Shown one piece after another: positions 1,419 through 10,192 of a stretch of DNA of 40,875 bases. Within the stretch, counting starts at the first letter, position 1. Each line of letters starts with the position of its first letter. The stretch is taken from IMG/VR virus record IMGVR_UViG_2563366845_000003, positions 1-40,875 of that record; one strand, 5' to 3'. This stretch comes from a virus. Taxonomy: Duplodnaviria > Heunggongvirae > Uroviricota > Caudoviricetes. The position numbers and the translations under genes are program-made. The notes below the pieces were generated by a model that did no database searches, was not told where the DNA came from, and saw nothing but the letters and a program-made list of their open reading frames with translations.

Positions 1419-2489
1419 TTATTTGATTTCAATTTTGTCCCACTCCCTGCCTCTGTCATCACGATACTGTGATGCCATGGTGTCCGACTTATGCCCGAGA
1501 AGATGTTGAGCAAACTTATCGCTTATCTGCTTCTCATAGAGTCTTGCAGACAAACTGCGCAACTCGTGAAAGGTAGGCGGATCCCCTTCGAAGGAAAGAC
1601 CTGATGCTTTTCGTGCGCGCATAAAATACCTTGATACTGTGCCGGATGAAAGCGGTTCACGACGAGTAGATGCAATTATGGTTTCTCCGCCAAGAATCTC
1701 TTTGCATTTATCAAGTGTTTCCTTCATTGATATCCCGAGAGCATCAACATGCAATGTTGTTGGGATGGCAATTTTTACGCCTGTTTTGCTTTGCTCGACA
1801 TAAAGATATCCATCTACGATATCAGACCACTTCATTTCGCATAAATCACCAACTCGTTGCCCGGTAACAACAGCCAGTTCCATTGCAAGTCTGAGCCAAC
1901 ATGGTGATGATTCTGCTGCTTGATAAATTTTCAGGTATTCGTCAGCCGTAAGTCTTGATCTCCTTACCTCTGATTTTGCTGCGCGAGTAGCAGCGACCGG
2001 GTTTGTTGTTATATGGCCTTCAGCTATTGCCTCTCGGAATGCATCGCTCAGTGTTGATCTGATTAACTTGGCTGACGCCGCCTTGCCCTCGTCTATGTAT
2101 CCATTGAGCATTGCTGCAATTTCTTTTGTGGTGATGTCTTCAAGTGGAGCATCAGGCAGACCCCTCCTTATTGCTTTAATTTTGCTCATGTAATTTATGA
2201 GTGTCTTCTGCTTGATTCCTCTGCTGGCGAGGATTTTTTCGTAGCGATCAAGCCATGAATGTAACGTAACAGAATTATCACTGTTGATTCTCGCTGTCAG
2301 AGGCTTGTGTTTGTGTCCTGAAAATAACTCAATGTTGGCCTGTATAGCTTCAGTGATTGCTATCCTCCTGTCTCGGCCTAATCCAAACTCTTTACCCGTC
2401 CTTGGGTCCCTGTAGCAGTAATATCCATTGTTTCTTATATAAAGGTTAGGGGGTAAATCCCGGCGCTCATGACTTCGCCTTCTTCCCAT
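1419..2489 (-). CDS. int: Lambda-type tyrosine integrase Int
   Basis: 356 aa, begins MGRRRSHERRDLPPNLYIRNNGYYCYRDPRTGKEFGLG, essentially lambda Int; overlaps xis by 23 bp as in lambda. Confidence 0.97.
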   Translation of the reverse strand: MGRRRSHERRDLPPNLYIRNNGYYCYRDPRTGKEFGLGRDRRIAITEAIQANIELFSGHKHKPLTARINSDNSVTLHSWLDRYEKILASRGIKQKTLINYMSKIKAIRRGLPDAPLEDITTKEIAAMLNGYIDEGKAASAKLIRSTLSDAFREAIAEGHITTNPVAATRAAKSEVRRSRLTADEYLKIYQAAESSPCWLRLAMELAVVTGQRVGDLCEMKWSDIVDGYLYVEQSKTGVKIAIPTTLHVDALGISMKETLDKCKEILGGETIIASTRREPLSSGTVSRYFMRARKASGLSFEGDPPTFHELRSLSARLYEKQISDKFAQHLLGHKSDTMASQYRDDRGREWDKIEIK

Positions 2490-2685
2490 TTCTGATCCTC
2501 TTCAAAAGGCTACCTGTTACTGGTCGATTTAAGTCAACCTTTACCGCTGATTCGTGGAACAGATACTCTCTTCCATCCTTAACCGGAGGAGGGAATATCC
2601 TGCACTCGCGTACCCATCGACGAACTGTTTCAAGGCTTCTTGGGCGTCGCTGGCGAGCGTTCCACTCCTGAAGTGTCAAGTACAT
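2467..2685 (-). CDS. xis: Excisionase Xis (72 aa)
   Basis: MYLTLQEWNARQRRPRSLETVRRWVRECRIFPPPVKDGREYLFHESAVKVDLNRPVTGSLLKRIRNGKKAKS matches lambda Xis; ATG at 2683..2685 preceded by a GGAG Shine-Dalgarno. Confidence 0.9.
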   Translation of the reverse strand: MYLTLQEWNARQRRPRSLETVRRWVRECRIFPPPVKDGREYLFHESAVKVDLNRPVTGSLLKRIRNGKKAKS

Positions 2686-2955
2686 CGCAAAGTCTCCGCA
2701 ATTACACGCAAGAAAAAGCCGCATTGATGCGGCGATGAATTCAGCATTGGCCTGCTGTTCCATTTGGAAATCTTCATCGAAACCGCTTTCAGGATGCGCT
2801 CCTTCAATTCTGCAAATGGGAAGATATCCAACAACTTCACGATGAATTAGCGCATCACCAGCATCAAATCTCTCCTCTCCATATTCGAGCGACCACGCAC
2901 CACACGTTGCTTTTTCTGCTGCCTCACGCAGTGCCTGATAGTCAATCTTGTTCAT
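2686..2955 (-). CDS. Open reading frame in frame with and directly upstream of xis (90 codons, no intervening stop); hypothetical protein or N-terminal extension
   Basis: ORF 2467..2955 reads MNKIDYQALREAAEKATCGAWSLEYGEERFDAGDALIHREVVGYLPICRIEGAHPESGFDEDFQMEQQANAEFIAASMRLFLACNCGDFA then continues straight into Xis; ATG at 2953..2955. Confidence 0.35.
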
Positions 2956-2956
2956 G

Positions 2957-3256
2957 TCACATCACCCTGAAGCCGTTGCATTTACGTAAGAAATCGCAGA
3001 TATAGCCCTTCATTTTTTCATGCCAATCTCGATCATTCCCATTGCACCACCCATCAGGTGGAGTCCAGTTTTCTATCAGAGCAGCCATTTTCTTTGCTTT
3101 CGCCGGAGTAGCTGTTGCGGTATCGCAGTAATGACGAGTGTCAACAAACTTATCCATGCCATCGATATCAAGTACGCAAAACCATGTGTGATTCGGAATT
3201 CCTACAGGTGGTATTTGTTGCCCACGTCGGCGTTTATCAATGAGATATACACTCAC
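2957..3256 (-). CDS. Hypothetical Cys/His-rich small protein (99 aa)
   Basis: GTG start with strong AAGGAGGT Shine-Dalgarno 6 nt upstream; stop overlaps the next gene start; several C and H residues suggest metal binding. Confidence 0.6.
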   Translation of the reverse strand: MSVYLIDKRRRGQQIPPVGIPNHTWFCVLDIDGMDKFVDTRHYCDTATATPAKAKKMAALIENWTPPDGWCNGNDRDWHEKMKGYICDFLRKCNGFRVM

Positions 3257-3918
3257 TGGTTACCTCCTTTGCGAAGCTCTGCGGCGAACTCGTTAAGTGA
3301 TATGTAGCAATCTCCAAATGTTAACGAACCGCTCGACCGCATATGCTCCATAGCCATCTCCACGCCCTGCGCCCGTACTTCAGCCAGGAAAGCATCGGTG
3401 GCTGGCATATTTCCTGTTGCCTTCATGGCCTCCAAAATAACCAGAACGCCATCTCGCCCAACCACCTCAGCGATAACCTCGGTGTTGTCGCCAACAACAT
3501 CGCAGAATGCCTGAACTGCCTTACGAGCCAGCTCATTCTCCACTGCCAGCGCCGTGCGATTACCCTCCAGCTCTGCAATGCGCTGTTTTGCGGCATCCAG
3601 TTCAATCGACAATTTTTCCAACTGCTCTTGATGCTTCTTGTATTCCTGATATGCGTGCCAAGACTGACCTTTGCGCACACTATCAGTGATATCAGTAATC
3701 TGTTCTGGTGTTAGCGTGGTCAGTGGCTGTGATGGGAAAATAAGCACTTTCCCGGAATCCCAATCAAAACCAGCGTGAATTGACTGAACCTCAACTGAAG
3801 GTGTTGAACCAATGCTGCCAGGCGAATGAACAACGATTGTTACATCCATATCGCGACGATGGCTGTGGTTGTTGGACAAAATACGATTCACCAACTCAGA
3901 AAATTTGGAAAATTTCAT
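3253..3918 (-). CDS. Ea22-like early-left protein (coiled-coil; paralog 1)
   Basis: 221 aa, ATG with AAGGGG Shine-Dalgarno; coiled-coil segment (EQLEKLSIELDAAKQRIAELEGN); shares the [12 protein letters not shown] motif with the neighbouring gene; position matches lambda ea22. Confidence 0.55.
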   Translation of the reverse strand: MKFSKFSELVNRILSNNHSHRRDMDVTIVVHSPGSIGSTPSVEVQSIHAGFDWDSGKVLIFPSQPLTTLTPEQITDITDSVRKGQSWHAYQEYKKHQEQLEKLSIELDAAKQRIAELEGNRTALAVENELARKAVQAFCDVVGDNTEVIAEVVGRDGVLVILEAMKATGNMPATDAFLAEVRAQGVEMAMEHMRSSGSLTFGDCYISLNEFAAELRKGGNQ

Positions 3919-4709
3919 GCTGATTCCCCTTTCTCTGCTCTCTCCTGTCGGAACATCACTATCATCAGGTCGCCTTTTGTCGCTATCCTGGCTGTTGTAC
4001 CTGGTTCAATGCGGCTAAGCTCAAATGCGTCATAGAACGCTTCTAATGCCTTCTGGCGTAGTTCCTGTTTGCGCCGTTTTTTCCACTGTTTTAGGAAAAT
4101 GGAACCCAGCCATCGCCATGTACGGGACATGATGTAAAGCCAACCGCACTGGCTGCTTCCTTTGCGAATCTGTTCCGCCCATTCTTCAAGGGATTTCTCC
4201 GCATATTCACCAGACAGGCCATCAATCGGATGCGCTTCATTAGCCAACTCTTCTTTCGCTGACAAAATCATGCGTGTAACGTCGAAAACTTCACGCAAAG
4301 ACTTATTGATAAATCCGTGATTGAACGCAGCAGCAAGACGGCTGGCGGTATAGTTAATCCCCTCGTTGCGTGCTTCCGCACGAATTTCAGCCAGGAAAGC
4401 ATCGGTGGCTGGGGTTTCAGTAACATCATCTTCCCATTCGCTAAACTCCTCACGACAAAAGTCATTAAATTCCTTCTCAGATTGCTTAAGCGAGGTATTT
4501 TCAGCAGCCATCTTCGCGCATTTAGCCTCAAGGTTATCAATCGTGATTCCAGCAGAACGACACTCCAGCAACGCCGTTTCTAGTTTTGATTCAAGTTCAC
4601 CGAACTTACGCACCAGATATTCAGCGTTTGTTTCGTTAACCTTTAAATCTCTGGGGATGCATTTACCTTTCAGAAAACCATCCATCTCAATTAGTGACAT
4701 TTGTTTCAT
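3915..4709 (-). CDS. Ea22-like early-left protein (paralog 2)
   Basis: Track ORF 3915..4727 begins with GTG; ATG at 4707..4709 with GGAG Shine-Dalgarno is the preferred start; contains [12 protein letters not shown] motif; TGA/ATG overlap with the downstream gene. Confidence 0.55.
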
Positions 4710-4870
4710 TTCTTCCCACTCCGCCACATTGCATTCAGATATTTGTTGTCATTAACAGAGCCGAAACTATTTCTCTTAAGCAATTCCTCTCTCGATGGCA
4801 TTGGCTTTACGCGTTGGCGAATAATCATTTCTGCCGGAAGAATGCCGGGATTGTATGCAAGTCCTCTCAT
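4706..4870 (-). CDS. Small hypothetical protein (54 aa), translationally coupled
   Basis: ATG 4868..4870 overlaps the stop of the upstream gene (ATGA); GGAGAG Shine-Dalgarno; translation [54 protein letters not shown]; below the ORF-track size cut-off. Confidence 0.35.
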
Positions 4871-5148
4871 GATTTACTCTCCATGAACTGGTCAACAGCC
4901 ATGCTAAGTGATACACCTAAAGTCTCGATATGCTGCTGAATATCCTGTAGCGTCTGCGCCTGAGATAACAGGATTTCACGGTTGCATAACTCTTTGACCA
5001 GATGCTCAAACTTGCTGTAATAACCGATACGGCTTAGTGTTTCTTTCCCTGCATTCTCACCTTCTTTGATAATTCCTCTTTCGCTAAGAATCAGATCGTG
5101 TTTAGTTCCGGTAATAACGTATTTTCCGAGGTCGATGTTTAGCTTCAT
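4867..5148 (-). CDS. Hypothetical protein (93 aa)
   Basis: ATG-initiated ORF in the leftward early operon; no recognisable motif. Confidence 0.55.
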
Positions 5149-5164
5149 TGTTAATTACTCCATG

Positions 5165-5479
5165 TTAATTTATTCGTATGCCTGCTCTTTCTTCATCGAG
5201 TTTTTTTAGCTTGTATCGCATAGCTCTTACTGAATAAATTGAGCGGCAGGTTGCAATTGCTATTTCTTCTGCGGAGAACTTACCGAAAAGTGATACTTCG
5301 GCTCTTGTCCAGCGTCTTCCACGAAGTCGGCTAACAATGTCAGCTCCAATCCTTGTTGCTTTCGCCATTACTGCTTTTTCAGTCCTTTCCAGTTTTTCAG
5401 CGATAACTTCAACTGGCATTGTCGCCGCCACTTCGCGCAAGAAATCGACCTCCCATTTCTCCCATGGAGTCTTTTTCAT
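5165..5479 (-). CDS. Hypothetical protein (104 aa) with two tandem W-x-E-V motif repeats, possibly DNA-binding
   Basis: ATG-initiated; internal repeat (WEKWEVDFLREVAA / WTRAEVSLFGKFSAEEIA) resembles tandem helix-type DNA-binding repeats. Confidence 0.5.
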   Translation of the reverse strand: MKKTPWEKWEVDFLREVAATMPVEVIAEKLERTEKAVMAKATRIGADIVSRLRGRRWTRAEVSLFGKFSAEEIAIATCRSIYSVRAMRYKLKKLDEERAGIRIN

Positions 5480-5490
5480 AGGCGATACCG

Positions 5491-5973
5491 TTATTTGATA
5501 AGAAGTGAAGGTTTCCCAACTTTGAGTTGAGCGCCGGGGATATTTATTCCTGCTTTTAGTTGGTGTTTGATTGCCAGTTTGTCGGCTTTAATTGTCGTTT
5601 CAAACTCAACGTATTCAGGAGGAAGGGCGCTTGAGTCGATGATTTCTACAGTTTCTGACGGTTTGCGGATTGTTACCTGGTGAATACCTGCTCGAATCTT
5701 TTTCTTGCCAACCATTTCAAGCGATGACGCTATATACGCCATAATGCTGTCAATCTTGTTTTGAATTACTGCGGCTCGCTCATTTAGTGACTTTGCCTCT
5801 TCCTTGAGGCGTTCAGCATAACCAGATTCATTTTTAATAATGGCAAGAAGTTGCTCTATTTTATCGGTAAATTCTCCTTCCATGCCTTCTATTGTGTCAG
5901 CAATCATCTCTGGTTCTAAATCTGAATCCATTAATTTTGCGTATTCATTGGCAATTTCATACAGTTTGCTCAC
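5491..5973 (-). CDS. Recombination-associated protein, Gp157-like (partner of RecT/Erf in many phages)
   Basis: 160 aa; GTG start with GGAGG Shine-Dalgarno; sits immediately upstream of recT; family assignment from memory of sequence character only. Confidence 0.5.
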   Translation of the reverse strand: MSKLYEIANEYAKLMDSDLEPEMIADTIEGMEGEFTDKIEQLLAIIKNESGYAERLKEEAKSLNERAAVIQNKIDSIMAYIASSLEMVGKKKIRAGIHQVTIRKPSETVEIIDSSALPPEYVEFETTIKADKLAIKHQLKAGINIPGAQLKVGKPSLLIK

Positions 5974-6859
5974 TGGCAGCCTCCAGTTTCGCTTTGCATT
6001 CTATGTAAATGGCTTGTACGTTCTGCTGCAATTTCATTCCAGATGTCAGTCGATATGCTTCTGCAAAATATCGCTTCAAATCATCCATGTTTTCTGCCTG
6101 ATCCATTTCATCACAAAGAAGTTGTGCTTTTTCCATTATTTCCTGCTGGCGTTTCCGTTCATCTTCGCGGATATCTTCCTCTGATTTGTGCGGCATAACT
6201 GGTTCCTGATGCATACCTTCATCTTCGTTAAGCAGGTGAATGGCATTATCCAGTCGCTGGGCTTTAGGCCAGTATTTGCTGGCGCGTTTAACTATTGTTT
6301 TACGCGCCATCTCTTCCCAGAATGTTTTCCACGGTCCATTCTTTGCCTTGCTCGTTGCTTCCACAGCTTTAATTTCTGCCAGACTCATTTCTTCAGTCAG
6401 GTAGTCACCATCTGCTGTTTTAACCGTGCAATAACCTCCAACAATAGAGCCTCGCTCACCAAATGCGTTGTATTTGTGGGTTGGTGCTGAATCAAGGCCA
6501 TTTGATTCATAGGTGTCGTTTGAGTACACCAGTTTGCATTGCCCCCACTTAATTGATCCTGTCGATTGCGCAAGATGAAGTAATCCCATGTAACTGATAT
6601 CAAGGCACACCATGCCGTCGCGCGGAACCAGATAAGCCAGTTTGCTGGCCGGGTTTAAGGTGATGCCGATCGCCGCAACATTGATGATGGCGTTCTGTGC
6701 GCTGGTTGGATTTGCCAGTGCCGTTTTAGCCAGGTAATCGTTTTTCTGGAAATACTGAATTGCAAACTGGCTTTCCTTAGCCCATGTCACCGTCTGTTCA
6801 GTCAATGCTCCGCAGAATAACTGCTCTTGCTGTTTAACGAATTCAACGATATTGCTCAT
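5957..6859 (-). CDS. recT: RecT-family single-strand annealing recombinase (lambda Bet analog)
   Basis: 300 aa; motif GPWKTFWEEMARKTIVKRASKYWP matches the RecT signature (GPWVTHWEEMAKKTAIRRLFKYLP in Rac RecT). Confidence 0.85.
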   Translation of the reverse strand: MSNIVEFVKQQEQLFCGALTEQTVTWAKESQFAIQYFQKNDYLAKTALANPTSAQNAIINVAAIGITLNPASKLAYLVPRDGMVCLDISYMGLLHLAQSTGSIKWGQCKLVYSNDTYESNGLDSAPTHKYNAFGERGSIVGGYCTVKTADGDYLTEEMSLAEIKAVEATSKAKNGPWKTFWEEMARKTIVKRASKYWPKAQRLDNAIHLLNEDEGMHQEPVMPHKSEEDIREDERKRQQEIMEKAQLLCDEMDQAENMDDLKRYFAEAYRLTSGMKLQQNVQAIYIECKAKLEAASEQTV

Positions 6860-7167
6860 GCTGCTTCTCCAAAAATGTGTCTGCGTTTGAATATTGCGAA
6901 GGCATATTCAGCCTTAACTCTTTCGGTTATTGCATCCCAGAACCATTCAGCGGCTTTTTCCTGATAGTTACAGTCATCATCTTCCAGCCAGTCGATAGCG
7001 TCCTTAGTGTGTTCATCTGGTTTATATGAGCGAAGCATTTCGCTTATTGGGTCGCAACGTTTGCAGAGGCGATCAACTTCACTGTTGATTCGTTCGTAAT
7101 CTTCATCAGTAAAACTTGCGATGATTTGCGATATTTCACGCTTATCATTCAGAGTCAGAATCATCAT
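6856..7167 (-). CDS. Hypothetical protein (103 aa) in the position of lambda gam
   Basis: ATGATG start; stop overlaps recT start (ATGA); acidic with several Cys; no similarity to lambda Gam apparent. Confidence 0.5.
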   Translation of the reverse strand: MMILTLNDKREISQIIASFTDEDYERINSEVDRLCKRCDPISEMLRSYKPDEHTKDAIDWLEDDDCNYQEKAAEWFWDAITERVKAEYAFAIFKRRHIFGEAA

Positions 7168-7252
7168 CTTTCTCCTGTTCTTTGTGCTGATTGAGCATTT
7201 TGTTCATCTGACGAATGAATTCCTCGTCTGACCAGTTATCTGTAAAACTCAT
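7145..7252 (-). CDS. Very small hypothetical protein (35 aa), translationally coupled to kil-like gene
   Basis: ATG 7250..7252 overlaps the kil-like stop (ATGA); translation MSFTDNWSDEEFIRQMNKMLNQHKEQEKDDDSDSE. Confidence 0.25.
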   Translation of the reverse strand: MSFTDNWSDEEFIRQMNKMLNQHKEQEKDDDSDSE

Positions 7253-7401
7253 TTCCTGCGATACCACGGAAGGTTGATAGCTGATTTCATCGCTTTATTT
7301 GCTTCAAGCCACATTTTGGAATCACCAATAAATCTGGCTATTACTGCTTTGTTTTGTGCTGCACGAAGCATCTGGTGATTGATGGCTATTTCATTGCGCA
7401 T
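7249..7401 (-). CDS. kil: Kil-like small protein (lambda Kil family, host division inhibitor)
   Basis: 50 aa MRNEIAINHQMLRAAQNKAVIARFIGDSKMWLEANKAMKSAINLPWYRRK; FIGD-KM motif recalled for lambda Kil; GGAGG Shine-Dalgarno; between cIII and the recombination genes as in lambda. Confidence 0.45.
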   Translation of the reverse strand: MRNEIAINHQMLRAAQNKAVIARFIGDSKMWLEANKAMKSAINLPWYRRK

Positions 7402-7728: not shown

Positions 7729-7754
7729 CAAAAATAAAGGCCGGCTATGCGGCC
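7729..7754 (-). terminator. Intrinsic terminator (tL-like) at the 3' end of the accessory gene
   Basis: Minus-strand GC-only 5 bp stem GGCCG-catagc-CGGCC followed by TTTATTTTTGG; overlaps the stop codon at 7745..7747. Confidence 0.55.
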
Positions 7755-8368
7755 TCGGAAGGAAGTCCAATCATCTTATTCAAATCTTCTACCCGTAAAG
7801 CAGGAAGTGCTGTACTTGCTTTATCTGCTTCTTTTGGTAGCAACTCTTTGCTTTCAGGCCAAACTTCAATAAGTCGCTTAACTGTTGTGACTGAGTTCAA
7901 AGCAGCCCATACATTTGATTTGATATCCTTTTTCTTGACTTCAAGTTTTTGTTGCAATGCGCAGATTTCATCAAACCTTTTTGTTATTTCGTGTTCTGCG
8001 TCAAACATGCATTTATCTTTTTCTGGGGTGGGGAGCAATATATCTTCACCGTTGCCGTCTTTTCCGTATGAATGCCAGCCAACTCTTCTGCCAGATACAG
8101 TCAGATAAATTGATGTAGAACGAACATCGTATGAGTAAAATGAACATCCCAGTTTTTTAAGTTCTTCACTTATAGCTACTAACTTGGATGATAACTGATC
8201 CACTTCCTCAGTTTTCTTTTTACCGCCAAACGCAATAACTCTGGCGTCAAGTGCAAGCTGGTTCTTTAACTTTGTTACTTCTTCAAGTTCAGTGAAAACC
8301 CCAGACTTAATTAAAGCGTTACGAGCGATTTCCTCTTTCATTCTCGTAGTTAAGCGGATTGATGACAT
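7745..8368 (-). CDS. Hypothetical accessory protein (207 aa, hydrophilic, Lys/Glu-rich, coiled-coil-like); function unknown
   Basis: ATG at 8366..8368 (MSSIRLTTRMKEEIARNALIKS) with GAGAGGAA Shine-Dalgarno; the track ORF begins upstream at a TTG; followed by its own terminator; occupies the lambda ral/sieB/ea10 position. Confidence 0.7.
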   Translation of the reverse strand: MSSIRLTTRMKEEIARNALIKSGVFTELEEVTKLKNQLALDARVIAFGGKKKTEEVDQLSSKLVAISEELKKLGCSFYSYDVRSTSIYLTVSGRRVGWHSYGKDGNGEDILLPTPEKDKCMFDAEHEITKRFDEICALQQKLEVKKKDIKSNVWAALNSVTTVKRLIEVWPESKELLPKEADKASTALPALRVEDLNKMIGLPSEAA

Positions 8369-8504
8369 ATTAATTCCTCTCAAATAAGTGGTTTGCTGCC
8401 TAATTTCATTTTCTGGCGACCAACACAAGTCACACCCATTTCACTGCGTGGCTTGCGGTAGTAAATAGGGTTATTTATGTCATTAAAAACCAGCATGAGC
8501 GTGG

Positions 8505-8785: not shown

Positions 8786-9094
8786 CTATCTCGCCGTAAT
8801 TGATTTCATTGACCTGTAACCAGCAGCATACAGTGCAACTTCAGGCAAACAAACGCTTCCGCCATTCGCATCTGTATTTGATTTACTGATGATGCCGAGT
8901 GATATTGCTTTTTCAGAAAGACTTAAACGCTTTCTCGGTTCTTCCTGAACAGCTTCCTCACTGTCTGTGCCGAAGATCGAATCGATGATGTTGCAGATGG
9001 AATCACGCTCGATAGCCAGCTTTCTGCGCCGCTCATGACGGCGAGTTTTGGCATTTCCTGCAAATGTTGATTTTCCGTACACGATTACCGTCAT
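8786..9094 (-). CDS. N: Antitermination protein N, P22 type (gene 24 homolog)
   Basis: 102 aa starting MTVIVYGKSTFAGNAKTRRHERRRKLAIER; GNAKTRRHERRRKLAIER is the P22 N arginine-rich boxB-binding peptide; GAGGA Shine-Dalgarno; the track ORF over-extends upstream. Confidence 0.85.
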   Translation of the reverse strand: MTVIVYGKSTFAGNAKTRRHERRRKLAIERDSICNIIDSIFGTDSEEAVQEEPRKRLSLSEKAISLGIISKSNTDANGGSVCLPEVALYAAGYRSMKSITAR

Positions 9095-9213
9095 GATGTT
9101 TTCCTCATGTGAAATGGCTTTGGTGGTGATGCGCCAGGTGCTGATCTTCTGGTTGCTGTCGTTGCAGCTGCAATTCACATCACCGCCAAACCCATCTCGT
9201 TTGGTATCTGTTT

Positions 9214-9447: not shown

Positions 9448-10107
9448 TTAACTAAATGTCTCTTCAGGCCACTGGCTGGCGATAACTTTCCCTACTACGG
9501 AACAGCTATCATTGCATGGGATCATTGGATATTGCGGGTTTAGTGGTTGTAGGAACACCTGACCGCTATCCCTGATCAGTTTCTTGAAGGTAAACTCGTC
9601 ACCGCCAAGTCTGGCTATGCAGAAATCTCCTGGCTCAACAGCCTGCTCAGGGTCAACGAGAATTAACATTCCGTCAGGAAAGCTTGGCTTGGATCCTGTT
9701 GGTGCGGTCATGGAATTACCTTCAACTTCAAGCCAAAACGCACAATCACTGGCTTTTTTGGTTGTGCTGACCCATCTCTCCGCATCACCTTTGGTAAAGG
9801 TTCTAAGCTCAGGCGAGAACATCCCGGCCTGAACATGAGAAAAAACAGGGTACTCATATTGTTTTTTAACGGGGGCAGATGAGTATTCGCCAACAGGTGA
9901 AAATGTACCGTCGTGGTTGAATGAGACGTTATCAATACCAAGGTATTTAAACACCACACCAATCTCGTCAAGAGATGGATGACGAGATCCGCGCAACCAG
10001 TGACCAATTCCACCCTGCGTCATACCAAGCTCTTCAGCTAACTTCTCTTGAGTTATGCCGAGCTCTTTCATTCTGGATCTAGCCAGTTCATACCATTTCA
10101 TTTTCAT
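9448..10107 (-). CDS. cI: CI-type prophage repressor (HTH N-terminal domain plus lambda-like S24 LexA-type autopeptidase C-terminal domain)
   Basis: C-terminal 130 aa nearly identical to lambda CI ([38 protein letters not shown] ... QWPEETF); N-terminal DNA-binding domain is different; ATG 10105..10107 with AAGGA Shine-Dalgarno; the track ORF over-extends to 10182. Confidence 0.85.
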
Positions 10108-10163
10108 ATCCTTATTATTACGCTCTGTACTAAAACCATCCATGCACAAGATGTATTTTTTGT

Positions 10164-10192
10164 TTGCATTCCAAAAGTACATATCGTATTAT
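10164..10192 (+). promoter_or_regulatory. pR promoter (-35 TTGCAT, 17 bp spacer, -10 TATTAT) with overlapping OR operator-like element AGTACATATCGTATT
   Basis: Hexamers at 10164..10169 and 10187..10192; AGTAC-containing element at 10176..10190 resembles the OL palindrome. Confidence 0.55.

What the first reader, a model, noticed from the sequence alone, without database searches (positions are those of the whole stretch)
4706..5479. Cluster of small uncharacterised genes between the Ea22-like genes and the recombination module
Three tightly packed, translationally coupled ORFs (54, 93 and 104 aa) lie in the variable early-left region. The 104 aa protein contains two tandem W-x-E-V helix-like repeats that suggest nucleic-acid or protein binding. 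Small early-left genes in lambdoid phages often encode host-takeover or anti-defence functions and are rarely characterised.
Basis: inference. Interest (0 to 1): 0.4.

Follow-up and report, generated by a model that had tools for sequence, protein, structure and literature searches.

The report
Three small early-left phage accessory genes
The three small ORFs are real, conserved phage genes from three separately shuffled families already in the databases (a distant relative of P22 Abc1 with two DNA-binding helix-turn-helix units, a P2 Orf83/DUF5405 protein, and a P22 orf56/DUF2737 protein); none has a known function, so the cluster is ordinary but sits in a region where anti-defence genes are being found.

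Summary
Three minus-strand ORFs of 104, 93 and 54 aa lie at 5165-5479, 4867-5148 and 4706-4870. They sit between a RecT + Gp157 (Mu Gam-like) recombination module and EaE/Ea22-like genes. Gaps are 11 and 16 nt, followed by two ATGA overlaps. All three are under purifying selection (dN/dS 0.07-0.3).

They are not a fixed system; each belongs to its own family and assorts independently.
- **54 aa:** DUF2737, 74% identical to P22 orf56.
- **93 aa:** DUF5405, homologous to P2 Orf83 and Sf6 gp24. It is a gene-precise cassette absent from close relatives. Its fold (beta-meander plus helical hairpin) matches no solved structure.
- **104 aa:** two three-helix HTH units, basic (pI 10), in PHROG 323 together with P22 Abc1. 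Profile-profile comparison with Abc1 gives 88% probability, E 3e-6.

Relatives of the 104-aa protein lie directly distal to recombination modules of every type examined: RecT/Gp157, Gam/YqaJ, DUF3799 exonuclease and Erf.

Best reading: an Abc1-like bipartite DNA-binding accessory protein, followed by two small binding proteins of unknown target. Functions are inferred, not shown. The downstream neighbour resembles the anti-OLD inhibitor Oad2.

Novelty is low: new members of known, uncharacterised families.

The parts
5165..5479 (-). 104-aa gene: Abc1-like protein made of two three-helix HTH units (PHROG 11492 / 323), pI 10.0
   Evidence: ORF. phrog_11492 4.6e-23 and phrog_323 2.8e-20; P22 Abc1 is also in phrog_323 at 1.3e-23. 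hhalign of the broad family against the Abc1 family: probability 88%, E 3e-6, collinear. AF2 pLDDT 82 with six helices. dN/dS 0.07-0.12. pI.
4867..5148 (-). 93-aa gene: DUF5405 family (P2 Orf83 / Sf6 gp24 / ES18 gp45 / HK446 gp29), a four-stranded beta-meander plus a helical hairpin
4706..4870 (-). 54-aa gene: DUF2737 family (P22 orf56 / HK97 gp38 / Sf6 gp23), basic, pI 10.7
   Evidence: PF10930 at 103.8 bits against a cutoff of 25. 74% identity to P22 orf56. tblastn finds it in 694 phage records. dN/dS 0.13-0.30.
5158..5161 (-). Shine-Dalgarno GGAG, 9 nt upstream of the 93-aa ATG
   Evidence: Read from the sequence (alignment).
4877..4882 (-). Shine-Dalgarno GGAGAG, 6 nt upstream of the 54-aa ATG, lying inside the end of the 93-aa gene; the stop and start overlap as ATGA at 4867-4870
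   Evidence: Read from the sequence (alignment).
5491..6859 (-). Context, upstream: recombination module, RecT (5957-6859) plus Sipho_Gp157/Mu Gam-like protein (5491-5973)
   Evidence: Pfam RecT 2.5e-33 and Sipho_Gp157 9.9e-37. PHROG 148 and 253. The HK140 module is described as SAP type 4 + MuGam in PMC12315714.
3915..4709 (-). Context, downstream: EaE/Oad2-like protein with a C-terminal DUF4752; its start is probably the ATG at 4709
   Evidence: DUF4752 2.4e-34. 62% identity over 139 aa to HK446 gp27 (Oad2). 47% identity to P22 EaE.

Best explanation
The cluster is three separate accessory genes of the lambdoid early-left (PL) operon. They are expressed together with, and just distal to, the recombination (Rec) module.

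(1) The 104-aa protein is a divergent homologue of P22 Abc1. It is a small basic protein built from two three-helix helix-turn-helix units. I infer that it binds double-stranded DNA with both units, as bipartite HTH domains do, and that it assists or regulates the phage's recombination and replication functions. That role would not depend on which annealing protein or anti-RecBCD protein the phage carries.

(2) The 93-aa DUF5405 protein (P2 Orf83 family) and (3) the 54-aa DUF2737 protein (P22 orf56 family) have no catalytic or nucleic-acid-binding signature. I infer that they work by binding a host or phage protein.

Shown here: gene reality, family membership, purifying selection, fold predictions, independent assortment, and the conserved position next to Rec modules. 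Inferred: DNA binding, any role in recombination, and any binding partner.
For: - **Genes are real and selected:**
- **Abc1 link:**
  - Both proteins match phrog_323 (2.8e-20 and 1.3e-23).
  - A family HMM scores Abc1 at 18.2 bits, above all 2000 composition-matched shuffles.
  - Profile-profile comparison gives 88% probability, E 3e-6, collinear over both units.
- **Conserved position:** family members lie directly after the last Rec-module gene beside four different module types.
  - RecT+Gp157: window, HK140, Gally, L018.
  - Gam + YqaJ: L004.
  - DUF3799 exonuclease + phrog_11517: L005, L016, SEN22, with a remnant in L015.
  - Erf: P22.
  - Sources.
- **HTH and DNA-binding class:**
  - AF2 predicts two three-helix units.
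  - Unit 1 aligns weakly to the NarL LuxR-type HTH (E 0.0023).
  - 3282 profile hits include proteins with up to 10 repeats that pass the Pfam Myb_DNA-binding threshold.
  - The repeat is fused to HNH nucleases and methylases.
  - pI is 10.0.
- **Literature on Abc1:** it is needed for full P22 recombination activity and its function is unknown (PMC9836394; PMC12315714). It has an HTH, triggers cell death that depends on a P4 prophage, and has a broad phage-sensitising phenotype (10.1101/2023.04.06.535777; PMC12373910).
- **DUF5405 = P2 Orf83:**
- **DUF2737 = P22 orf56:**
- **Independent assortment:**
Against: - The Abc1 relationship is remote: about 21% identity, no pairwise BLASTP hit, and only 14% hhalign probability with the narrow alignment. 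Part of the signal could be generic HTH similarity.
- A position-based 'Abc1' label was wrong before: HK620 HkaK turned out to be an SSB (PMC5928155).
- The window protein does not itself reach any Pfam HTH or Myb threshold. Comparison with c-Myb R2R3 is not significant. Foldseek hits to bipartite HTH domains are not significant either (best E 0.08).
- Abc1's own mechanism is unknown, so 'Abc1-like' transfers little function.
- Nothing here shows DNA binding or an effect on recombination.
- For the 93-aa and 54-aa proteins there is no functional evidence at all.
Confidence: 0.55

Rival explanations
1. The 104-aa protein is an ordinary transcription factor unrelated to recombination. It binds promoters of the host, of resident prophages or satellites, or of the phage itself, and its position next to the Rec module is only an accident of operon order.
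For: It has an HTH architecture with similarity to sigma-70 region 4 and LuxR. NCBI names Abc1 relatives 'sigma-70 family'. P22 Abc1 triggers death through the P4 satellite prophage, which Silas et al. interpret as interference with P4 transcriptional control. PHROG 323 is labelled 'transcriptional regulator, D5-like'.
Against: The position after the last Rec gene is kept beside four non-homologous Rec module types. That is hard to explain without a functional or regulatory link. Genetic work cited ties Abc1 to recombination efficiency.
Confidence: 0.25
2. One or more of the three proteins is a direct counter-defence factor. It would inhibit an immune system that senses Rec-module or anti-RecBCD activity, as the neighbouring Oad2-type gene does for OLD.
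For: In HK446 the DUF5405 and DUF2737 genes (gp29, gp28) lie between Abc2 and the anti-OLD inhibitor Oad2 (gp27). That preprint describes the locus as an anti-defence hotspot. The window's next gene is 62% identical to Oad2 over 139 aa. DUF5405 behaves as a mobile cassette present in lambdoid, P2-like, N4-like and other phages. Abc1 gave a broad phage-sensitising phenotype.
Against: The HK446 genomic library screen recovered only gp27 as an OLD inhibitor. There are no matches in PADLOC. No phenotype has been reported for DUF5405 or DUF2737 (literature search). Strong conservation (dN/dS about 0.1; DUF2737 in 694 phage records) is unlike the fast-evolving inhibitor interfaces described for Oad2.
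Confidence: 0.15
3. The three genes form one obligate three-component system whose products act together.
For: They are tightly packed and appear translationally coupled. The arrangement is intact in 143 E. coli genomes and 5 phage records. Singleton in-frame fusions of the 104-aa protein to DUF2737 exist in metagenomes.
Against: The genes assort independently. Gally, mEpX1, Kapi1 and SEN22 have the 104-aa and 54-aa genes without the 93-aa gene. Sf6, ES18 and HK446 have the 93-aa and 54-aa genes without the 104-aa gene. P22 and Stx phages have DUF2737 only. P2 has DUF5405 only. Phage record counts are 16, 160 and 694.
Confidence: 0.03
4. The ORFs are chance open frames or decaying pseudogenes.
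For: They are small. The 104-aa gene has a weak ribosome-binding site. Truncated copies exist in databases.
Against: dN/dS is 0.07-0.30 at synonymous divergence up to saturation. Lengths are conserved across genera. The structure predictions are confident. Curated family matches exist.
Confidence: 0.02

Closest known systems
P22 Abc1 ('anti-RecBCD protein 1', gp35; PHROG 323)
   Same: Similar size (94 aa against 104 aa). Basic. Two HTH units, with the second starting at a conserved Trp followed by acidic residues and ending in a ...GRS..SV..R... recognition helix. Both match phrog_323. Profile-profile comparison is collinear at 88% probability. Same slot immediately after the recombination genes in the PL operon.
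   Different: Only about 21% identity and no pairwise BLAST hit. P22 pairs Abc1 with Erf and Abc2, whereas this phage has RecT and a Mu Gam-like protein and no Abc2. Any role therefore cannot be specific to Abc2. Abc1's own mechanism is unknown.
Bipartite HTH DNA-binding domains (Myb R2R3, paired domain, Tc3 transposase, AraC-type, Sulfolobus Cbp1)
   Same: Two about 50-aa three-helix units in tandem on a flexible linker. The best, though non-significant, Foldseek hits are to such domains. Multi-repeat relatives pass the Pfam Myb_DNA-binding threshold at the segments matched by this protein's repeat HMM.
   Different: The window protein does not reach the Pfam Myb threshold. hhalign against c-Myb R2R3 gives E 0.27. 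It lacks the three regularly spaced tryptophans of Myb repeats. DNA binding is untested.
P2 Orf83 / Sf6 gp24 / ES18 gp45 / HK446 gp29 (Pfam DUF5405, PHROG 154)
   Same: The 93-aa protein is a full-length homologue: 34% identity to P2 Orf83 with hhalign probability 99.4%, 98% to Sf6 gp24. In the lambdoid relatives it overlaps the following DUF2737 gene by 4 nt, as here.
   Different: In P2 the gene sits directly before and overlapping the replication initiator gene A, not beside a Rec module. No member has a tested function. The PHROG label 'replication initiation protein' is unsupported.
P22 orf56 / HK97 gp38 / Sf6 gp23 (Pfam DUF2737, PHROG 1117)
   Same: 74% identity to P22 orf56. It occupies the same place as the last small gene before the EaE/Ea22-type genes in P22, Sf6, ES18, HK446, SEN22 and Stx phages.
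   Different: Nothing notable; it is a typical member. Function unknown.
Lambda / Stx-phage exo-xis region genes (orf60a, orf61, orf63, orf73, ea8.5, ea22)
   Same: Same genomic compartment: small non-essential early genes between the recombination genes and xis/int. In lambda and Phi24B these modulate the lysis-lysogeny decision and prophage induction (PMC3824215, PMC8614690).
   Different: No sequence relationship was found between the three proteins and those genes. Effects on lysogeny were not tested for these families.

Membership tests
P22 Abc1 family (PHROG 323) | Significant match to the family profile | tested here: met
   phrog_323 E 2.8e-20 for the 104-aa protein; P22 Abc1 E 1.3e-23 against the same profile. 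The matched profile ranges overlap only partly (145-269 against 93-190), as expected for a repeat-containing profile.
P22 Abc1 family (PHROG 323) | Direct homology to P22 Abc1 itself | tested here: inconclusive
   BLASTP finds no hit. hhalign with the narrow alignment: probability 14%, E 0.0019. The family HMM scores Abc1 at 18.2 bits, above all 2000 shuffles. hhalign of the broad alignment against the Abc1 alignment: probability 88%, E 3e-6, collinear 15-92 against 12-92. Homology is likely but remote.
P22 Abc1 family (PHROG 323) | Gene lies immediately distal to the recombination genes in the early-left operon | tested here: met
   The window gene starts 11 nt after the Gp157 stop. Relatives have the same placement beside four Rec module types.
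P22 Abc1 family (PHROG 323) | Contributes to phage recombination or RecBCD modulation | not testable with these tools
   This needs genetics or biochemistry. The literature says Abc1 is needed for full activity and that its mechanism is unknown.
Myb_DNA-binding (Pfam PF00249) | Score at or above the Pfam gathering threshold | tested here: not met
   No PF00249 hit for the 104-aa protein at E <= 1. P22 Abc1 scores 17.0 bits against a cutoff of 24.4. Only multi-repeat relatives such as P0157 pass (140 bits). hhalign against c-Myb R2R3 gives E 0.27.
Tri-helical HTH repeat class (Myb / sigma-70 r4 / LuxR-like) | Two three-helix units, each of the same domain type | tested here: met
   AF2 helices 8-17/23-30/34-44 and 59-66/70-77/81-103. 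HMMs of each half coincide on 60 segments of multi-repeat proteins. Unit 1 aligns to the NarL HTH at E 0.0023. Direct half-against-half similarity is not significant.
DUF5405 (Pfam PF17399; P2 Orf83) | Score at or above the Pfam gathering threshold, and full-length homology to P2 Orf83 | tested here: met
   25.5 bits against a cutoff of 21.6. hhalign to P2 Orf83: probability 99.4%, E 2.2e-21 over 88 columns.
DUF2737 (Pfam PF10930; P22 orf56) | Score at or above the Pfam gathering threshold, and full-length homology to P22 orf56 | tested here: met
   103.8 bits against a cutoff of 25, profile positions 1-52 of 53. 74% identity over 53 aa to P22 orf56.
P22 Abc2 (Pfam PF11043 Anti-RecBCD_p2), considered for the 93-aa protein because of its position after the Abc1-like gene | Sequence similarity to Abc2 | tested here: not met
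   No Pfam hit and no BLASTP alignment. Abc2 and DUF5405 also coexist as adjacent genes in Sf6, ES18 and HK446.
Replication initiation proteins (the label carried by PHROG 154) | Similarity to any characterised initiator, or a nuclease or origin-binding motif | tested here: not met
Known anti-phage defence proteins (PADLOC) | Match to any defence-system model | tested here: not met
   No hits for any of the three proteins at E <= 0.1.

The most novel reading that the evidence does not exclude
Abc1-like two-HTH proteins may be a previously unrecognised general component of lambdoid recombination modules. They would work with any annealing protein (RecT, Erf, the phrog_11517 and phrog_21613 types) and any anti-RecBCD strategy, and so are misnamed 'anti-RecBCD'. 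For example, they could bind a DNA structure or site to direct the annealing machinery, or to time the switch to recombination-dependent replication. A corollary is that satellites such as P4 may sense this conserved factor. The DUF5405 and DUF2737 proteins next to it could then be undiscovered inhibitors of immune systems that watch recombination activity.
Probability: 0.2. Interest if true: 0.5.

Novelty: new member of a known kind. Interest (0 to 1): 0.27.

Why it matters
As it stands, little. The genes are near-identical to annotated genes of phages HK140, Gally and Sf6, and they belong to catalogued families of unknown function.

Two points have modest value. First, Abc1 has been an unexplained member of the P22 recombination system since the 1980s. 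Here, distant Abc1 relatives occupy the same slot beside four unrelated Rec module types, including modules with no Abc2. That argues Abc1-type proteins are not Abc2 or RecBCD cofactors, and it gives a broader, comparative handle on their function. Second, the cluster lies next to an Oad2-like gene, in a locus now reported to be a hotspot for triggers and inhibitors of recombination-sensing immunity. DUF5405 and DUF2737 are therefore reasonable, cheap candidates for anti-defence screens.

Tried and rejected
- **Abc1 and Abc2 by pairwise BLASTP:** the 104-aa and 93-aa proteins gave no hits in any combination. The Abc2 idea for the 93-aa protein was dropped. The Abc1 link needed profiles.
- **Internal repeat of the 104-aa protein:** direct tests (BLASTP; half-against-half HMM with shuffles) were not significant. 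I replaced them with transitive evidence.
- **c-Myb R2R3 comparison:** not significant.
- **Fold searches:**
  - Foldseek against PDB for the 104-aa model gave nothing at E <= 0.001.
  - The afdb50 library was unavailable.
- **PDB sequence searches:** only a weak NarL HTH match for the 104-aa family, coiled-coil noise for the 93-aa family, and nothing for the 54-aa protein.
- **Other libraries:** NCBIfam, PADLOC and Rfam on the whole window gave nothing relevant.
- **Signals inside the cluster:** the promoter and terminator scan found no minus-strand signals there. The repeat search found no candidate operator-like repeats; the only clear repeats are the shared Ea22-family motif in two paralogous downstream genes.
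- **P2 Orf81:** it carries the same PHROG-derived label but is not related to the 93-aa protein.
- **Literature:**
  - DUF5405, DUF2737 and P2 orf83 turned up no functional work.
  - Supplements of the Silas et al. papers did not contain these sequences.
  - Oad1 is an unrelated vibriophage protein.
- **Contexts of DUF5405 in N4-like and Hafnia phages:** uninformative.
Full report
**1. The observation**

The window is a mosaic lambdoid phage genome. The region around the finding is 98.7% identical to phage HK140 and 96% identical to several P22-like coliphages. The rest of the window matches IME10, E212, 683R2 and Gally in patches.

On the minus strand the early-left operon reads as follows:
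- cI-type repressor (9448-10182) and N (8786-9178)
- an Nmad5 protein (7745-8428) and Kil (7249-7401)
- a phrog_3486 protein (6856-7167)
- RecT (5957-6859) and a Sipho_Gp157/Mu Gam-like protein (5491-5973)
- the three ORFs of the finding: 104 aa at 5165-5479, 93 aa at 4867-5148, 54 aa at 4706-4870
- an EaE-like protein (3915-4727) and an Ea22-like protein (3253-3918)
- DUF7739, xis and int

Packing is tight:
- 11 nt separate the Gp157 stop from the 104-aa ATG.
- 16 nt separate the 104-aa stop from the 93-aa ATG, with a GGAG Shine-Dalgarno.
- The 93-aa and 54-aa genes overlap as ATGA, with a GGAGAG Shine-Dalgarno.
- The 54-aa stop overlaps an ATG at 4709, again as ATGA. This is most likely the true start of the next gene, because it matches the start of HK446 gp27.

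No promoter-like or terminator-like site lies inside the cluster on the coding strand. There is no Rfam match anywhere in the window.

**2. Are they genes?**

Yes. Each matches an existing family. Homologues keep their length across Escherichia, Salmonella, Citrobacter, Enterobacter, Klebsiella, Raoultella and Buttiauxella at 50-98% identity.

Pairwise Nei-Gojobori estimates against relatives:

| Gene | dN/dS | Compared with |
|---|---|---|
| 104 aa | 0.07-0.12 | SEN22, an Enterobacter prophage |
| 93 aa | 0.07-0.21 | ES18, Sf6 |
| 54 aa | 0.13-0.30 | P22, SEN22, Sf6 |

Synonymous sites are often near saturation.

**3. The 54-aa protein**

It is a full-length DUF2737 member (103.8 bits against a cutoff of 25) and 74% identical to P22 orf56. 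tblastn finds the family in 694 of 50,697 phage records. A conserved C-terminal core also occurs in virulent Salmonella and E. coli siphoviruses.

In every lambdoid context examined it is the last small gene before the EaE/Ea22-type genes: P22, Sf6, ES18, HK446, SEN22, an Enterobacter prophage and an Stx2a phage. It is basic (pI 10.7). It has no PDB relative, and I found no paper on its function.

**4. The 93-aa protein**

It passes the DUF5405 threshold and is a full-length homologue of P2 Orf83 (hhalign probability 99.4%). That gene lies directly before, and overlaps, the replication initiator gene A in P2-like phages.

In Sf6, ES18 and HK446 the order is Abc2, DUF5405, DUF2737. DUF5405 is therefore not a replacement for Abc2, and it has no sequence similarity to Abc2.

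The PHROG label 'replication initiation protein' has no visible basis beyond a phiKT protein name and the adjacency to P2 gene A.

The gene is a gene-precise cassette. In Gally and SEN22 the 104-aa stop is followed by one Shine-Dalgarno-bearing spacer and then the DUF2737 ATG. The window and HK140 carry the 93-aa gene between two similar spacers.

**5. The 104-aa protein**

*Family size and repeats.* Close relatives form a narrow enterobacterial family, with only 16 phage records. Some members, at 152 aa, carry a third repeat.

*Fold.* AlphaFold2 (pLDDT 82) predicts two three-helix units joined by a lower-confidence linker. W6, E10, F13 and L14 correspond to W57, E61, L64 and F65, all invariant or nearly so in the family.

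*Are the two halves the same domain?* They are too diverged to detect directly. However, a profile search of 1.84 billion representative proteins returns 3282 hits (E <= 0.001), many of 300-900 aa with up to ten copies of the unit. In those proteins, HMMs of each half land on the same segments 60 times. Those segments pass the Pfam Myb_DNA-binding threshold; some also match GcrA-N or sigma-70 region 4.

*Other HTH evidence.* Unit 1 aligns weakly with the LuxR-type HTH of NarL (E 0.0023). In other phages the same repeat is fused to HNH nucleases and DNA methyltransferases. The protein is basic (pI 10.0), and most of the charge is in unit 2, with its long recognition helix.

All of this points to a bipartite DNA-binding protein. 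The window protein itself reaches no Pfam threshold, and fold hits to bipartite HTH domains are not significant. DNA binding is therefore an inference.

**6. Relationship to P22 Abc1**

P22 has the parallel gene order erf, abc1 (94 aa), abc2 (97 aa), orf56 (DUF2737), eaE. The Gally record already labels its identical protein 'Anti-RecBCD protein 1, similar to P22 Abc1'.

| Test | Result |
|---|---|
| Pairwise BLASTP | no hit |
| phrog_323 match, 104-aa protein | 2.8e-20 |
| phrog_323 match, P22 Abc1 | 1.3e-23 |
| HMM of small two-unit relatives scored on Abc1 | 18.2 bits, above all 2000 composition-matched shuffles |
| hhalign, broadened family against Abc1 family | probability 88%, E 3e-6, collinear over both units |
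| hhalign, narrow alignment | probability 14% |

I accept remote homology as likely, at about 0.8.

The positional evidence is stronger than for a single case. Family members lie immediately after the last gene of Rec modules built from non-homologous parts:
- RecT + Gp157 in the window, HK140, Gally and a metagenomic phage. The last has two tandem paralogues.
- Gam + phrog_21613 + YqaJ exonuclease in a Salmonella prophage.
- DUF3799 exonuclease + phrog_11517 in SEN22, an Enterobacter prophage and another prophage.
- A phrog_11517 remnant in one more locus.
- Erf in P22.

A caution from the literature: the position-based 'Abc1' of HK620 turned out to be an SSB (PMC5928155).

**7. What is known about Abc1**

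It is required for full activity of the P22 recombination system but is not essential. [quoted passage not shown]

In a functional screen, P22 abc1 triggered cell death that depended on a resident P4 satellite prophage. It was noted to have an HTH, and it sensitised several wild E. coli strains to phages. No target was identified by AP-MS (10.1101/2023.04.06.535777; PMC12373910).

Relatives of the 104-aa protein occur with Mu Gam-like, lambda Gam-like or Abc2-type anti-RecBCD proteins. A role as a dedicated Abc2 or RecBCD cofactor is therefore unlikely. This is my inference.

**8. Not one system**

The three genes assort independently.
- Five phage records carry all three contiguously (two of them are the same phage, HK140), as do 143 of 5426 complete E. 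coli genomes. Parts of the region occur in 1375 genomes.
- Gally, mEpX1, Kapi1 and SEN22 lack the 93-aa gene.
- Sf6, ES18 and HK446 lack the 104-aa gene.
- P22 and Stx phages have only DUF2737.
- P2 has only DUF5405.

**9. Surroundings**

A 2026 preprint identifies HK446 gp27 as Oad2, a direct inhibitor of the P2 OLD abortive-infection nuclease. Oad2 is related to P22 EaE. The preprint describes the Rec-module neighbourhood as a hotspot of immune triggers and inhibitors (10.64898/2026.07.10.737580).

In HK446 the DUF5405 and DUF2737 genes (gp29, gp28) sit between Abc2 and Oad2. The window's next gene is 62% identical to Oad2 over 139 aa, and about 95% identical over the first 75 aa. It carries an extra C-terminal DUF4752.

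That paper's library screen recovered only gp27 as an OLD inhibitor, so gp28 and gp29 are not anti-OLD factors in that assay. None of the three proteins matches a PADLOC model.

**10. Verdict**

The finding is real but ordinary: three conserved hypothetical genes of known families in the variable early-left region.

What the tools added:
- The 104-aa protein is a remote Abc1 homologue with two HTH units and a conserved position beside all kinds of Rec modules.
- The 93-aa protein is the P2 Orf83 family, a mobile single-gene cassette with an unassigned fold.
- The 54-aa protein is P22 orf56.

Function is inferred only for the first, as DNA binding with an accessory or regulatory role near recombination. 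It is unknown for the other two, which I take to be small protein binders and possible counter-defence factors.

Interest is low to moderate, and novelty is 'new member of a known kind'.

Noticed in passing
window 3915-4709 (-): The gene directly after the cluster resembles the anti-OLD inhibitor Oad2. It is 62% identical over 139 aa to HK446 gp27, nearly identical in the first 75 aa, and 47% identical to P22 EaE. It also carries an added C-terminal DUF4752 domain. Its real start is probably the ATG at 4709 (ATGA overlap with the 54-aa stop), not the GTG at 4727.
   Followed up: partly
window 2467-2955 (-): A 162-aa ORF joins an Ead/Ea22-like N-terminal part (PF13935, residues 3-111) to an excisionase domain (PF07825, residues 91-162). 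It is either a fusion or an over-long ORF call upstream of xis.
   Followed up: no
window 7745-8428 (-): A 227-aa Nmad5 (nucleotide modification associated domain 5) protein is encoded in the early-left operon between N and Kil.
   Followed up: no
L004 5001-6007; L015 4001-4815; L018 2713-4279: In several relatives the Abc1-like gene overlaps the start of, or lies close to, a phage Dam methyltransferase gene (PF05869). In mycobacteriophages the same HTH repeat is fused to DNA methylases and HNH nucleases. This may point to a DNA-targeting role.
   Followed up: partly
L018 3702-4001 and 4001-4279: Two tandem Abc1-like paralogues (99 and 92 aa, both phrog_11492/323) follow the Gp157 gene in a metagenomic phage that also has RecT and Dam.
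   Followed up: partly
proteins P0002 and P0035 (metagenome gene calls): Two singleton proteins fuse the 104-aa protein in frame to DUF2737. One is full-length through an 'EEFT' junction; the other is an internal deletion. They could be real deletion variants or assembly errors.
   Followed up: no
whole window: There is no Chi site (GCTGGTGG) on either strand in 40.9 kb, against 1.3 expected. The deficit is not significant, but it is in line with phages that carry their own Rec module and an anti-RecBCD function (PMC12315714).
   Followed up: no
window 3254-3405 and 4147-4412: Direct repeats of 36-48 nt (73-92% identity) reflect a shared Ea22-family motif (…PATDAFLAE[IV]RA…) in the two adjacent downstream genes, which are partial paralogues.
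   Followed up: no
database annotation (PHROG 154; Gally GALLYPH_26): Two inherited labels look unreliable. 'Replication initiation protein' for DUF5405 has no supporting similarity. 'Anti-RecBCD protein 1' for the 104-aa protein implies a RecBCD role that has never been shown even for P22 Abc1.
   Followed up: yes
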